IMG/VR virus record: IMGVR_UViG_3300009155_000038
Source of the DNA: a virus
Reading direction: 5' to 3' (one strand)
DNA: 64,000 bases
Shown: positions 53,355 through 59,585 of the stretch, piece by piece
Layout: the number at the start of each line of letters is the position of its first letter
Numbering within the stretch: position 1 is the stretch's first letter
Notes under the pieces: model-generated
Seen by the model: only the letters and a program-made list of their open reading frames with translations
What the model was told of the DNA's origin: nothing
The model's database searches: none
Made by a program: the position numbers and the translations under genes

Positions 53355-54899
53355 TCAATCTCCGCCACCGCCATTCCGCCAACTGCGTTGCGCATCATGC
53401 CAGTTCTGCTCCCATCCGAGGAGTTTATAGCTATTTCGTCGACCCAAACTCTTCCGGTAGAAGGTTGGATCAAACGTGTCCATGCAATCTATGACTTCGC
53501 CGACTTCTTTACGTGTACCGTCCGGTGCGGTGTAGATTCGACTCACACGCCCCGGACCTTGTACGTCAACAATGTCGCTGTCTCTGTCGTCTGCTCTAAC
53601 TAATACGCTCAGCTGCTCAAAGTCTACGCCCGTGGCCCACACGTCTGTGGCGATCACGCGCTTTAACGTTCCCTGCTCAAACTGCGTTCGCATGTCATGC
53701 TTCTGGATGTCCATAAGCGGCTTGTAGTCTTGCGGCAGTAAGCCTTTTTTCCTGTAGTCGGAACAGTCGTATGGCGACATGTTGGCGTATACAAGACTAA
53801 ACTCCGGCAAGAGTGAGCCAAGATAGACAGCGTGTTCAATTGTCTCCACAAGTATCAAAATCTGTTGCGATTCTGGGTACTGGCGGACGGCGTCGGCTAT
53901 GATGCCATTTCGCTCTTGGTTTGTCCAGATGCCCGCACGCTTTCTCGCGACGCGGTGTTTGTAGCGTTCTGCGGGGTTTGCCCTCAACCGCATCGGCAGC
54001 CAGCTTACCCGAACGGGCACAACCAGCCCAAGCTCCACAGCTTGTTGGTACGTCAGCTCAAACACCATTGGACCGAACAACGGCTCAAGCACAGCATGAG
54101 CGTTATCCATTCGCGCGTATGGCGTAGCGCTCATGCCGAAGTTGCGGCTGTTGCGATATCTGCCGGCAAGCGTCGTCGAGAAGTTGATCGTGGCTAGCTG
54201 ATGCACCTCGTCGGCAAACATGAAGTCAGCGTCGCCGTCCGCGTGCTGCAGACTACCGGCTGTGATTACCGTGACGCGCTCACGCTGCTTCCAGCCGTCA
54301 CCAATCATGCCGACCTTTGGAAGCAGACGTTTGAGACTGCGCACGATACGCTCAGCCACGTCAACACTCTTGGTCACGACGTCAATCTTGGCTTCTGGAA
54401 ACAATAGCGCAGCCGCGGCAATCATGGTGGTTTTGCCGAACCCCGTGACAGCCTTGATAATCCCACAAGGCGCACGGGCAATCGTCTGCAAGCACTCTTC
54501 TTGACGCGCTCGAAACTCGACACGCCCCACGAGGTTGTCCCAATGCGGCACATAGCAATTGGGACGTTTCCGCGCTGGGCTAGAATCCAGTAGCGTCGCC
54601 GGGCAACCCAGCTTTCGAAGCCGGTTGACCATCCGCGCCAGATAACCGCTCAAGAGCACAACATGCCCGTTCTCGACGCGGTACAGCTTGTACTCCTTGG
54701 TCTGGAAATACATGCGCTGCCCGGTCACAGGATCTCGCCGCGCTTGCCCCTGTACCTGCTCGATGTGGGAGTAGCGCAGGTCGTGCGTTAGTTGCTTGAT
54801 CAATCCTTCGTTCAGCGGCGCTTTATCAATCCCAGTTAACGTCAGAACATTTCCCGATCGGTGAATGACCACCGGTTGAGTACGGCTCTCAGCTGTCAT
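53355..54899 (-). CDS. Superfamily 2 (UvsW/XPB-like) helicase
   Basis: TGFGKTT, DEVH, SAT and QGPGRVSR; ATG 54899 overlaps the upstream gene's stop. Confidence 0.9.
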   Translation of the reverse strand: MTAESRTQPVVIHRSGNVLTLTGIDKAPLNEGLIKQLTHDLRYSHIEQVQGQARRDPVTGQRMYFQTKEYKLYRVENGHVVLLSGYLARMVNRLRKLGCPATLLDSSPARKRPNCYVPHWDNLVGRVEFRARQEECLQTIARAPCGIIKAVTGFGKTTMIAAAALLFPEAKIDVVTKSVDVAERIVRSLKRLLPKVGMIGDGWKQRERVTVITAGSLQHADGDADFMFADEVHQLATINFSTTLAGRYRNSRNFGMSATPYARMDNAHAVLEPLFGPMVFELTYQQAVELGLVVPVRVSWLPMRLRANPAERYKHRVARKRAGIWTNQERNGIIADAVRQYPESQQILILVETIEHAVYLGSLLPEFSLVYANMSPYDCSDYRKKGLLPQDYKPLMDIQKHDMRTQFEQGTLKRVIATDVWATGVDFEQLSVLVRADDRDSDIVDVQGPGRVSRIYTAPDGTRKEVGEVIDCMDTFDPTFYRKSLGRRNSYKLLGWEQNWHDAQRSWRNGGGGD

Positions 54900-55386
54900 C
54901 GCTTGGTCCTGCGACGGGCTCGACGGATATAACTTCAAATGTCCCATATTTTTCCTGCGAGTTATTGAACGGGGAGAACCCGCGGTATTTGCCAATCAAT
55001 GTCAGTAGATGCACAAAATCGGATATTGGAATCTCAAGCGGCAAAACAGCTGATAAGACTACCACGTCGCCGGGCCGAAAAGCCTCGTGAAGCGCAAAGT
55101 GACTTTTAGCCTGCCCGTCAGGAGTATACGTCACGATCGACCGGCGCCAATCGGTTCGGGGTTCTCCCACAACAATTGGGCACCAGTCGATCTTTTTGAC
55201 TTCGGTGTGGTGCTTGTTGGCGATCTTGGCGGCATACCGCAGGCAGCACAGCCACGACGACGGAAGAAACATCACACGCTGGCTGGGGTCGCGGTCAAAG
55301 CAAAAGATGATCTGCCCGTGCCGCCGTTTTTTAGCGCCGCCGAGGCATACCCGATTAAACCGCAAAGTTACCGTGACTTCTTGCAT
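54889..55386 (-). CDS. Stand-alone RAMP (Cas7/Csm3-like) protein
   Basis: EVTVTLRF..VCLGG (beta1), FDRDP...FLPSSWLCCLRYAA (like RD..G.P.IPGSSLKG.LR), thumb ending HEAFRPG, helix FVHLLTLIG and C-terminal loop RGFSPF...KYGTFEV (like GLG..RS.GYG.F.V). Confidence 0.68.
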   Translation of the reverse strand: MQEVTVTLRFNRVCLGGAKKRRHGQIIFCFDRDPSQRVMFLPSSWLCCLRYAAKIANKHHTEVKKIDWCPIVVGEPRTDWRRSIVTYTPDGQAKSHFALHEAFRPGDVVVLSAVLPLEIPISDFVHLLTLIGKYRGFSPFNNSQEKYGTFEVISVEPVAGPSDDS

Positions 55387-58474: not shown

Positions 58475-59585
58475 CGTTGGGTTCCCCGCTCATGTGCTTA
58501 GAAAACTGTACATCAAGCTCTTTTCCTGCATCTTCCGCGACCAACAAGGCCGCGGCTAGTTTGTACGCTTCCGAGTCCTCGCCTACCAGATCCGCCAGCG
58601 CACCCAGCAAATCGTTCTTAGCGCTGTCGCGCGTGGCTGTTTTCGAGGTACTGTATTTCTCGCTAATTGCTTCACACGCAATATGCGCAAAATCCCCTAC
58701 CGCCGTCATAAGCCGTAAATACGCATCTGGAAGCTGCTTATCGAACTTAATTCGAATCAGCGGCTTGTTAATGTTTGCCGGCAGCGTAGCGTCCAGCTGG
58801 TCATTGATATCTTTGACCAGCTGACCAGAACACAAAGAGTCCAACGTGTCTTGGTCTTTCACTGTGTAGTTCAGGAACTTACGCGTCCTGAGCTGCACTG
58901 GCGTAAAGACAAACTCACGAGTCGTAGGAATACGGCCAATGACAAAGAAGAACTTCTCGGGGCTCTCGCTCATGTCTTGCATGCAGGTCGAGCCGGGAGA
59001 CAGCATCTTGATCGGCTTGCCCTGCGCGTTCACGCTCTCGACTGTCTTGGTGACATGAAAGTCGCCGGCCAAGACAGTCTGTACGTGGTGCACGTCTGTC
59101 AACTCGCAGTCTGTGCGGCCGAGATTGCCCATGAAGTCTTTCCAGACCTGATGGGTGATTAAGATATCTGTATCCTCCGGCACGCGCGTAAACGCGTCTT
59201 GAATGTCGCCGCGGGGCAGCCAGTCAAAGCCAGCAACCGTGACGCCACTGATATTAAAACGGGCCTCGTGCATGTGAATCGGCCACGGGTGCGCACTCAG
59301 CCACGGCGCGTTACGGTCATACTCGTGGTTGCCCTGAATGTAGTACACGTCCACCCGATTGTTCTGCATCCGCGTCAGCCCTTCGAAGAGCTTGGCGATA
59401 GGCCGCGCAGAGTTGCTCTTCTTCTCTAATACGTCGCCGCCCAGAATCAGGGGCAGATCATGCTCAATACAGTAATCGACAGTCTGCTCAAAGCTGTAGT
59501 ACGCGTCGCCGTAGATCCCCGGACGACTCGACCACGCGCCGTCCTCTAAGTGGAGGTCAGCGCAGAATACGAACAAGGGCGTCAC
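58416..59585 (-). CDS. sbcD: SbcD/Mre11 (gp47-like) metallophosphoesterase nuclease
   Basis: ADLHL, LGGDV, IQGNHE, LITHQ and AGDFH. Confidence 0.9.
   Translation of the reverse strand: MTPLFVFCADLHLEDGAWSSRPGIYGDAYYSFEQTVDYCIEHDLPLILGGDVLEKKSNSARPIAKLFEGLTRMQNNRVDVYYIQGNHEYDRNAPWLSAHPWPIHMHEARFNISGVTVAGFDWLPRGDIQDAFTRVPEDTDILITHQVWKDFMGNLGRTDCELTDVHHVQTVLAGDFHVTKTVESVNAQGKPIKMLSPGSTCMQDMSESPEKFFFVIGRIPTTREFVFTPVQLRTRKFLNYTVKDQDTLDSLCSGQLVKDINDQLDATLPANINKPLIRIKFDKQLPDAYLRLMTAVGDFAHIACEAISEKYSTSKTATRDSAKNDLLGALADLVGEDSEAYKLAAALLVAEDAGKELDVQFSKHMSGEPNDAALTVGSEELGTPQVPSM

What the first reader, a model, noticed from the sequence alone, without database searches (positions are those of the whole stretch)
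53355..59585. Candidate new RNA-guided module: RAMP-like + IS110/Nop-like pair coupled to an SF2 helicase and Mre11/Rad50
Seen: sbcD, sbcC, IS110-like, RAMP-like and SF2 helicase are chained by overlaps or gaps of 59, 20, 3 and 11 bp with no room for an array. There are no other cas genes, IS ends or CRISPR repeats in the window. Established: RAMPs scaffold crRNA in class 1 CRISPR; the IS110/Nop fold binds guide RNAs in bridge recombinases, box C/D RNPs and TIGR-Tas. Inference: two catalytically silent guide-RNA-binding folds side by side in a replication operon could form an RNP that targets DNA or RNA and recruits the helicase and nuclease, for origin R-loop priming, recombination, or interference with rival phages. 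The guide would be encoded elsewhere. Equally they may be exapted ssDNA or RNA binders with no guide.
Basis: partly seen in the sequence, partly recalled or inferred. Interest (0 to 1): 0.85.

Follow-up and report, generated by a model that had tools for sequence, protein, structure and literature searches.

The report
Guide-less TasR-like and Cas7-like phage pair
Two small genes between a DNA-end nuclease (Mre11/Rad50 type) and a helicase in the replication operon of an uncultured ~200-kb phage fold like proteins that normally hold guide RNAs (TIGR-TasR/IS110 and CRISPR Cas7), but no guide-RNA array was found in the window or in three near-complete relatives, so they most likely act as fixed, non-programmable helpers of DNA replication and recombination.

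Summary
On the minus strand, sbcD, sbcC, a 315-aa gene, a 165-aa gene and an SF2 helicase are chained by a 59-nt overlap, a 20-nt overlap, a 3-nt gap and an 11-nt overlap. Both fold calls are right. The 315-aa protein matches TIGR-TasR over its full length (Z 10.8), then IS110 bridge recombinases. It has no conserved RuvC acidic residues. The 165-aa protein is a minimal Cas7/Csm3-type RAMP (Z up to 10.7).

Both families are virus-restricted and sit in this operon in 77 distinct loci of 150-235-kb uncultured phages. Sixty-eight loci have both genes, 7 have only the TasR-like gene and 2 have only the RAMP. The RAMP is about as conserved as the DNA polymerase.

I found no CRISPR, TIGR or VIPR-type repeats in the window or in three relatives rated 93-100% complete.

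The RNA-guided-module reading is therefore unsupported. The natural parse is Mre11/Rad50 + TasR-like, and RAMP + helicase. Function remains inferred.

Other agents of this scan noted the same pair and RAMP on other genomes.

The parts
58416..59585 (-). sbcD / Mre11-like nuclease subunit (389 aa)
   Evidence: Pfam Metallophos 5.8e-08; phrog_100 SbcD-like. Syntenic in relatives.
56318..58474 (-). sbcC / Rad50-like ATPase (718 aa); overlaps sbcD by 59 nt
   Evidence: SMC_N 9.6e-18, AAA_23, SbcC_Walker_B; phrog_77 1.4e-32. Junction read.
55390..56337 (-). TasR-like protein P0001 (315 aa): RNase H/RuvC-like N-terminal domain without conserved acidic residues, plus a Nop / IS110 C-terminal-like helical domain. 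Its start overlaps the sbcC stop by 20 nt.
   Evidence: AF2 pLDDT 86. VIA Z 10.8 to TIGR-TasR 9mty over 232-234 residues, TasH Nop domain Z 8.3, IS621 Z 8.6/8.3, ISCro4 Z 7.8. Foldseek top hits are the same entries. The family profile's only PDB sequence hit is TasR, E 0.15.
54889..55386 (-). Minimal Cas7/Csm3-type RAMP P0002 (165 aa): single RRM core, beta-hairpin thumb, glycine-rich loop. It starts 3 nt after the P0001 stop.
   Evidence: AF2 pLDDT 83. Foldseek gives 70 PDB hits at E<=1e-3, all listed ones CRISPR RAMPs (Csm3, Cmr4, type VII Cas7), best 8.5e-06. VIA Z up to 10.7, and the top 33 rows are all CRISPR RAMPs.
53355..54899 (-). SF2 helicase (514 aa from ATG 54899). Its start overlaps the RAMP stop by 11 nt.
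   Evidence: ResIII 7.7e-10, Helicase_C; phrog_16 3.5e-31. The closest solved sequence is archaeal XPB-II, 1.8e-08. It follows the RAMP in every RAMP locus.
52634..53473 (-). Conserved ORF of no known family between the helicase and the DnaB-like helicase (start uncertain)
   Evidence: No Pfam/PHROG/NCBIfam hit. Syntenic in most relatives, as orf279/orf229.
50974..52710 (-). DnaB-like replicative helicase
   Evidence: phrog_19 3.6e-14
49881..51098 (-). DNA primase
   Evidence: phrog_47 1.5e-40; DNAG_N
46722..49874 (-). DNA polymerase
   Evidence: phrog_17 1.5e-97

Best explanation
The two genes encode guide-independent nucleic-acid-binding accessory factors of the phage's recombination and replication machinery. 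They derive from the same fold families as guide-RNA holders but are used here in a fixed, non-programmable way. The context parses into two sub-modules.

(1) Mre11/Rad50 (SbcD-SbcC) plus the TasR-like protein. I infer that its dead RuvC-like domain serves as a docking or DNA-structure-binding platform, as the dead RuvC of Nop5 docks fibrillarin. I infer that its Nop/IS110-C-like domain grips bent or branched DNA, or an RNA-DNA hybrid, at ends and forks.

(2) The Cas7-like RAMP plus the SF2 helicase. I infer that the RAMP holds a single strand (ssDNA or RNA) through its thumb and glycine loop and couples it to the helicase, as RAMP backbones do for Cas3, DinG or the helicase-type accessory proteins that the VIPR preprint reports for some VIPR types.

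Together they would process ends, forks or R-loops for recombination-dependent replication.

Shown here: folds, synteny, virus restriction, strong conservation, no detected arrays, and separability of the two genes. Inferred: the substrates, the physical contacts and the role in replication.
For: Folds; weak sequence link to TasR.

Fixed position in the core operon sbcD-sbcC-TasR-like-RAMP-helicase-ORF-DnaB-primase(-pol): all 44 close loci and divergent clades down to 27-30% identity. There are 77 distinct loci: 68 with both genes, 7 with only the TasR-like gene, 2 with only the RAMP (corrected).

Separability: the TasR-like gene follows sbcC and the RAMP precedes the helicase even when the other is missing (L117, L200). 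Complete genome G008 lacks the RAMP and complete genome G011 lacks the TasR-like gene.

Conservation: median identity to the window over the 44 close loci is helicase 79, RAMP 75, polymerase 71, sbcD 66, sbcC 65, TasR-like 59, primase 57, DnaB 47. This is a core-gene pattern.

Conserved residues: no acidic RuvC tetrad and no serine is conserved across the TasR-like family. Asp33 of the RAMP is not conserved, whereas the G-loop and HEAFxPG are invariant.

No arrays in the window or in three relatives rated 93-100% complete. Only tRNAs, a tmRNA and two small Rfam motifs in G001.

Virus-restricted: 898 representative clusters but only 2 short MAG contigs among 185,579 species genomes. No PADLOC hit.
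Against: No experiment and no expression data are available. No direct evidence shows what either protein binds or that they touch SbcCD or the helicase. The rest of the window's own genome is not held, so the absence of arrays rests on relatives. A single-copy or coding-embedded RNA partner would escape my scans. Retention of the G-loop and thumb, and of the Nop-type motifs, is equally what a true RNA holder would show. The catalytic status was judged from conservation and model register, not from a residue-level structural superposition.
Confidence: 0.55

Rival explanations
1. Fixed-RNA ribonucleoprotein. The TasR-like protein and/or the RAMP bind one specific phage transcript, not an array. 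Examples are an origin or primer RNA, or an RNA embedded in coding sequence. They hold it against DNA as an R-loop to prime replication or recombination and to recruit the helicase and Mre11/Rad50.
For: Both folds are known as holders of guide RNA paired to a target. The RNA-contacting hallmarks (G-loop, thumb; the HP...DPRW...LGLTP block aligned to the TasR C-terminal domain) are the most conserved parts. The genes sit beside an SF2 helicase in a replication operon.
Against: No conserved structured non-coding candidate was found. Intergenic DNA is only about 4% of the genome. The conserved stretches I followed up resolved to coding sequence, tRNAs or a tmRNA; some weaker matches were not examined. 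The one strongly folding gap in the window is a 96-aa gene. The two proteins are separable.
Confidence: 0.2
2. Programmable RNA-guided interference (TIGR-Tas-like and/or VIPR-like) against rival phages or host DNA, with guides encoded elsewhere in a form my scans do not recognise.
For: TIGR-Tas and VIPR are both mostly phage-borne (PMC12045711; bioRxiv 10.64898/2026.04.26.720920). According to that preprint, VIPR types III-V carry helicase or nuclease accessory genes. TasR forms with an inactive RuvC exist.
Against: No dual-repeat or periodic arrays and no YNNGG/NNNGG/YNNNG tracts beyond chance in the window or in G001, G002 and G003. No intergenic space flanks the genes. The genes show core-gene conservation and strict vertical synteny rather than the patchy, fast-evolving pattern of conflict systems.
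Confidence: 0.07
3. Counter-defence decoys. The RAMP mimics a Cas7 subunit and the TasR-like protein mimics a Tas/IS110 protein, to poison host CRISPR, TIGR or transposon complexes or to sequester their RNAs.
For: Both are catalytically silent copies of defence- or mobile-element-type folds carried by a phage.
Against: Anti-defence genes are usually accessory, variable and clustered in early or accessory regions. These two are fixed inside the replication operon across very divergent phages, and the RAMP is as conserved as the polymerase. There is no sequence similarity to cellular Cas7 or Tas.
Confidence: 0.08

Closest known systems
TIGR-TasR (PDB 9mty; Faure et al. 2025, PMC12045711)
   Same: Full-length architecture: an N-terminal RuvC/RNase H-like domain plus a Nop-type helical RNA-binding domain (Z 10.8, 232-234 aligned residues). 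It is the only PDB sequence hit of the family profile (E 0.15). It is phage-borne. RuvC-inactive TasR forms are described.
   Different: No TIGR array (dual-repeat or stem-loop) is adjacent or anywhere in three near-complete relatives. The gene is embedded in a replication operon after sbcC. There is no significant sequence similarity. The family is a separate, large, virus-only group of 898 representative clusters.
IS110-family bridge recombinases (IS621 8wt6/8wt9; ISCro4 9t56)
   Same: Same two-domain architecture (Z 7.8-8.6 over 233-237 residues). By my recollection of the Pfam Transposase_20 consensus, the block HP...DPRW...LGLTPxxQ resembles its motif hP...Gd..rF...GLxP....SG; one search aligns this block to the TasR chain that PDB names an IS110 C-terminal-domain protein.
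   Different: No conserved DEDD residues and no conserved serine. No IS ends and no non-coding bridge-RNA flank. The gene is single-copy, vertically inherited and not mobile.
CRISPR Cas7 of type III/VII (Csm3, Cmr4)
   Same: RRM core, thumb hairpin and glycine-rich loop between the last helix and strand. Foldseek E 8.5e-06, Z up to 10.7.
   Different: Only 165 aa. No cas neighbours and no CRISPR array. The Csm3-type catalytic Asp loop appears to be replaced by a basic loop, and Asp33 is not conserved (judged by motif, not superposition). No sequence-level similarity.
Vipr of VIPR systems (bioRxiv 10.64898/2026.04.26.720920)
   Same: A minimal single-RRM RAMP encoded by phages outside CRISPR loci. 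The preprint reports that some VIPR types pair the RAMP with a helicase or nuclease accessory gene.
   Different: The defining vrRNA (tandem YNNGG or related repeats in flanking intergenic DNA) is absent in the window and in three near-complete relatives. The gene has no flanking intergenic space. It is a core replication-operon gene. I could not place it in the Vipr phylogeny, because no Vipr sequence or structure appeared in my searches.
Archaeal Mre11-Rad50-HerA-NurA operon
   Same: From my own knowledge of that operon, not tested here: an Mre11/Rad50 pair is operonic with a helicase and a protein with an RNase H-like fold, for end resection.
   Different: Here the RNase H-like domain lacks catalytic residues. 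NurA was not among the listed structural matches. The helicase is SF2, not HerA-type.

Membership tests
TIGR-Tas (TasR) | Nop-type RNA-binding domain | tested here: met
   VIA Z 8.3 to the TasH Nop domain (model residues 138-295) and Z 10.8 to full TasR. Profile hit to TasR residues 150-248, E 0.15. This is fold-level evidence only.
TIGR-Tas (TasR) | N-terminal RuvC domain (active or inactive) | tested here: met
   Residues 1-126 match RuvC/YqgF/RuvX folds at Z 6-7. No conserved Asp sits at the end of strand 1 (T14/A15), and no acidic tetrad is conserved in the family, so this is an inactive form.
TIGR-Tas (TasR) | Adjacent TIGR array (dual 8-12-nt repeats with 9-nt spacers, or stem-loop units) | tested here: not met
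   The flanking genes overlap. No periodic short-repeat chains in the window, G001 or G003. The few chains in G002 lie inside coding repeats.
TIGR-Tas (TasR) | Sequence membership in the Tas clade | tested here: inconclusive
   Only E 0.15 to 9mty. No Pfam Nop/IS110 hit at E<=10 for 32 members.
IS110 bridge recombinase | DEDD RuvC active site and catalytic Ser in the Tnp domain | tested here: not met
   Across the broad family alignment only D122 and D176 are near-invariant. S207 is conserved only in the close clade and is Ala in P0009.
IS110 bridge recombinase | Mobile element with non-coding bridge-RNA region and ends | tested here: not met
   The gene is flanked by overlapping sbcC and RAMP genes. 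It has the same position in 75 of 77 loci. It is absent from cellular genomes apart from 2 MAG contigs.
CRISPR-Cas class 1 Cas7 | RAMP fold with thumb and G-loop | tested here: met
   Invariant G132, G136, S138, P139, G148.
CRISPR-Cas class 1 Cas7 | CRISPR array and other cas genes in the locus or genome | tested here: not met
   None in the window or in G001-G003. The Pfam RAMPs model finds nothing in 4 relative genomes.
VIPR | Minimal phage-encoded RAMP outside CRISPR | tested here: met
   165 aa, a single RRM, in a phage genome.
VIPR | vrRNA: four or more tandem YNNGG (or NNNGG/YNNNG) units in flanking non-coding DNA | tested here: not met
   0 tracts in the window. Counts at or below shuffle level in G001-G003. 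The one outlier is a poly-G contig-end artefact.
VIPR | Placement in the Vipr protein clade | not testable with these tools
   No Vipr sequence or structure was retrievable. No identifiable Vipr appeared in PDB or BFVD searches.
SbcCD / Mre11-Rad50 | Metallophosphoesterase subunit plus SMC-like ABC ATPase subunit, adjacent | tested here: met

The most novel reading that the evidence does not exclude
The TasR-like dimer and a short Cas7-like filament hold a fixed phage RNA (or the nascent strand) against duplex DNA. This forms a defined R-loop or D-loop at origins or ends, which recruits the XPB-like helicase and Mre11/Rad50. That would be an RNA-guided step built into core phage replication. 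It could also represent the pre-programmable state from which TIGR/IS110-type and RAMP-type guide systems arose.
Probability: 0.12. Interest if true: 0.9.

Novelty: new variant of a known kind. Interest (0 to 1): 0.6.

Why it matters
Two protein folds known mainly as guide-RNA holders (TasR/IS110-Nop and Cas7-type RAMP) turn out to be fixed, strongly conserved genes of the replication-recombination operon of a very large, uncultured group of 150-235-kb phages, with no guide array detected. If they work without guides, they show what these folds do outside programmable systems. They also offer candidates for the ancestral, housekeeping role from which phage-borne guide systems (TIGR-Tas, VIPR, and later CRISPR and IS110) were recruited. 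If they do carry an RNA, this would be an RNA-guided step inside core DNA replication. Either way they are new, testable cofactors of Mre11/Rad50 and of an SF2 helicase.

Tried and rejected
**Tests that gave no usable answer**
- Co-fold of P0001 with P0002 (complex prediction): no verdict (score 0.00). This is not evidence either way.
- Fused forms of the RAMP among longer proteins: none found, which is weak evidence.
- PADLOC: no hit for either protein. There are only generic ATPase/helicase similarities for sbcC and the helicase.

**Leads followed and dropped**
- Protein-atlas lead that P0001 resembles DUF4123 proteins (feature score 0.92). This was not borne out: PF13503 found nothing in four relative genomes at E<=10, and no member hit it in Pfam.
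- window:32960-33287 folds very strongly (z -7.3) and is conserved. An alignment of 17 relatives shows an open 94-97-aa frame with variation concentrated at codon position 3 (91 of 96 columns, against 52 of 96 at position 2), followed by a terminator. It is a small protein gene, not a guide RNA.
- The conserved 'non-coding' G001:1-560 is the cut 5' part of a minus-strand gene.
- G001:59.8-60.2 kb is a tmRNA.
- A dispersed intergenic motif at G001 52-57 kb gave only short promoter-like matches.
- NNNGG x8 at G002:2-41 is a poly-G contig-end artefact. The periodic 8-mers in G002 lie inside coding repeats.

**Searches that found nothing**
- tblastn of both proteins and of a distant TasR-like member against 50,697 cultured-phage records: no match.
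- BFVD search for the RAMP: three phage RAMP-like hits but no identifiable Vipr.
- The Pfam RAMPs model found nothing in relatives.

- No whole genome is held for the window.
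Full report
**What is there.** All genes in the 64-kb window lie on the minus strand. They include collagen-like tail fibres, a UvsX-like recombinase, a DNA polymerase, a primase and a DnaB-like helicase, so this is a large tailed phage. At the finding's coordinates the ORFs are:
- sbcD, 58416-59585
- sbcC, 56318-58474
- a 315-aa ORF, 55390-56337 (P0001)
- a 165-aa ORF, 54889-55386 (P0002)
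- an SF2 helicase, 53355-54899

The sbcD, sbcC and helicase assignments come from Pfam and PHROGs. P0001 and P0002 hit nothing in Pfam, PHROGs, NCBIfam or PADLOC, nothing in 50,697 cultured-phage records, and nothing significant in PDB sequences.

**The folds.** Both proteins have hundreds of metagenomic homologues (308 and 221). This allowed AlphaFold2 models with pLDDT 86 and 83.

- **P0001.** Foldseek's best PDB matches are TIGR-TasR (9mty, probability 0.98) and then IS621 bridge recombinase chains. VIA-align gives TasR Z 10.8 over 232-234 residues, IS621 Z 8.6 and 8.3, ISCro4 Z 7.8, and the TasH Nop domain Z 8.3 for residues 138-295. Every other match covers only the N-terminal RNase H/RuvC-like domain at Z 7.0 or below.
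- **Independent sequence support.** A profile of the broad family has exactly one hit in all PDB sequences at E<=10, and it is the same TasR chain (E 0.15). The conserved block HP...DPRW...LGLTP aligns to TasR residues 150-248, which is the IS110 C-terminal-type domain.
- **No catalytic residues in P0001.** No acidic residue is conserved at the end of strand 1. No DEDD set and no serine is conserved across the family. The RuvC-like domain is therefore most likely inactive.
- **P0002.** Foldseek returns 70 PDB hits at E<=1e-3. All those listed are CRISPR RAMPs: Csm3, Cmr4 and type VII Cas7. VIA gives Z up to 10.7, with the top 33 rows all CRISPR RAMPs. The model has one RRM core, a beta-hairpin thumb (81-99) and a glycine-rich loop (132-148). 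In a family-wide alignment the G-loop and an HEAFxPG motif are invariant. Asp33 is not, and the loop after strand 1 is basic.

**Distribution and linkage.** The TasR-like family is large: 898 representative clusters at E<=1e-3 among 1.84 billion representatives, all about 300 aa. It is virus-restricted. A scan of one genome from each of 185,579 prokaryote species found only two short MAG contigs.

In IMG/VR the genes lie on contigs of up to about 235 kb, with the complete or near-complete ones spanning 169-226 kb. The order sbcD-sbcC-TasR-like-RAMP-helicase-ORF-DnaB-primase(-polymerase) holds in all 44 close relatives. It also holds in clades whose proteins are only 27-45% identical.

After removing duplicates, 77 loci contain both sbcC and the helicase. 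Of these, 68 carry both genes, 7 carry only the TasR-like gene and 2 carry only the RAMP. One search's raw tally was 65/7/5 because a position filter wrongly dropped the TasR-like ORF in L178, L183 and L194, where one search shows it, so I corrected the counts to 68/7/2.
- In L117 and L130/L131 the TasR-like gene abuts the helicase.
- In L200 sbcC abuts the RAMP.
- The complete 226-kb genome G008 has no detectable RAMP.
- The complete 169-kb genome G011 has no detectable TasR-like gene.
- Other small genes are inserted between the two in some relatives.

The pair is therefore usual but not obligate. The steadier associations are sbcC with TasR-like, and RAMP with helicase.

**Evolutionary behaviour.** Median identity to the window across the 44 close loci is:

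| Protein | Median identity (%) |
|---|---|
| SF2 helicase | 79 |
| RAMP | 75 |
| DNA polymerase | 71 |
| sbcD | 66 |
| sbcC | 65 |
| TasR-like | 59 |
| Primase | 57 |
| DnaB-like | 47 |

. The RAMP is thus among the slowest-evolving proteins of the module. In several relatives the helicase carries a LAGLIDADG-containing, intein-like insert; from general knowledge, such inserts favour conserved essential genes. This is the profile of core replication genes, not of conflict cassettes.

**Search for a guide.** TIGR arrays are long runs of alternating 8-12-nt repeats with 9-nt spacers, or stem-loop units, next to tas (PMC12045711). VIPR guides are tandem YNNGG or related units in the intergenic DNA flanking vipr (bioRxiv 10.64898/2026.04.26.720920).

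The window has none of these. No genome is held for the window, so I fetched three relatives in full:
- G001, 205,188 bp, rated 100% complete
- G002, 205,010 bp, rated 100% complete
- G003, 192,194 bp, rated 93% complete

. They show no tandem arrays by TRF (run on G001), and no periodic 8-mer chains outside coding repeats. YNNGG/NNNGG/YNNNG tracts stay within the range of the shuffled controls apart from a poly-G contig end, with one 8-unit YNNNG run in G003 just above its controls that I did not follow up.

Gaps of 90 bp or more make up only about 4% of these genomes. The conserved stretches I followed up resolved to tRNAs, a tmRNA, cut coding sequence or short promoter-like motifs; some weaker matches were not examined. 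The only strongly folding gap in the window (32960-33287, z -7.3) is a conserved 96-aa gene plus its terminator. I could obtain no expression data.

**Interpretation.** The evidence favours guide-independent accessory factors of the recombination and replication machinery (confidence 0.55).
- **By position,** the TasR-like protein belongs with Mre11/Rad50 and the RAMP with the helicase.
- **By analogy for the TasR-like protein.** A dead RuvC domain can be a docking platform, as stated for Nop5-fibrillarin in PMC12045711. TasR bends its target DNA by nearly 180 degrees.
- **By analogy for the RAMP.** RAMP backbones elsewhere recruit SF2 helicases. Cas3 and DinG are examples from my own knowledge, and helicase-type accessory genes are reported for some VIPR types.

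I therefore infer that the RAMP grips a single strand and couples it to the XPB-like helicase. I also infer that the TasR-like protein binds bent, branched or hybrid structures at ends and forks for SbcCD. These mechanistic steps are inference only.

The rivals are a fixed, non-array RNA partner forming an R-loop (0.20), an unrecognised programmable guide system (0.07) and counter-defence decoys (0.08).

**Novelty and prior notes.** I found no paper describing this pair or either family. Other agents of this scan reported the same RAMP, and in one case the same pair, on other genomes. Their Vipr lead gave me the VIPR preprint, whose defining feature I then tested here and did not find.

I class the finding as a new variant of known kinds. 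It consists of new, virus-only families with TasR-like and Cas7-like folds, in a new guide-less context as core operon genes.

Noticed in passing
window:32997-33287 (minus strand): A conserved small gene of 96 aa (MRYF...GLVVAHL...PLGRLYF...), followed by a strong intrinsic terminator. The region folds far better than shuffles (z -7.3). It was missed by the 120-aa ORF list and has no known family.
   Followed up: yes
L033:10287-13046; also L005, L006, L019, L027: In some relatives the SF2 helicase carries an insert of about 1.4 kb with a LAGLIDADG domain inside one long ORF (919 aa). This is probably an intein.
   Followed up: partly
window:60932-61002 (minus strand): tRNA-Gln (UUG). The mechanical ORF 60486-61103 over it is probably spurious: its short, high-identity matches in relatives probably reflect the conserved tRNA, which I did not check by coordinates.
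   Followed up: partly
L048:19765-20000 into L049 (G001, about 59.8-60.2 kb): The complete relative encodes a tmRNA next to a cluster of five tRNAs. It is about 90% identical between G001 and G002.
   Followed up: partly
L049:13660-13695 and L054:2969-3043 (G001): Rfam matches above the gathering score to the abiF RNA motif and the DUF3800-VIII RNA motif in the relative's genome. Their significance is unknown.
   Followed up: no
window:4282-6074, 8153-8734, 12322-15056, 16440-16635: Extensive period-9/18/27 collagen-like (Gly-X-Y) coding repeats in tail-fibre genes, including a 1665-aa fibre protein.
   Followed up: no
window:52634-53473 (minus strand): An ORF of no known family, conserved between the SF2 helicase and the DnaB-like helicase in most relatives. 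By position it is a candidate helicase loader.
   Followed up: no
L033:8258-9995; L037:8908-10013; L122:9873-11392; L089:9894-11968: Variable small genes are inserted between the TasR-like gene and the RAMP or helicase in some clades. The five L033/L037 ORFs that were scanned have no Pfam hit; the L122 and L089 ORFs were not scanned. Two L122 ORFs looked ClpS-like and T4 endonuclease V-like by eye only.
   Followed up: partly
L057:1-41 (G002 start): A poly-G run at the contig end, which looks like an assembly or sequencing artefact and mimics an NNNGG repeat tract.
   Followed up: yes
P0001 (window:55390-56337): Protein-language-model features place P0001 nearest DUF4123 proteins (score 0.92), although no sequence or HMM link was found.
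   Followed up: partly
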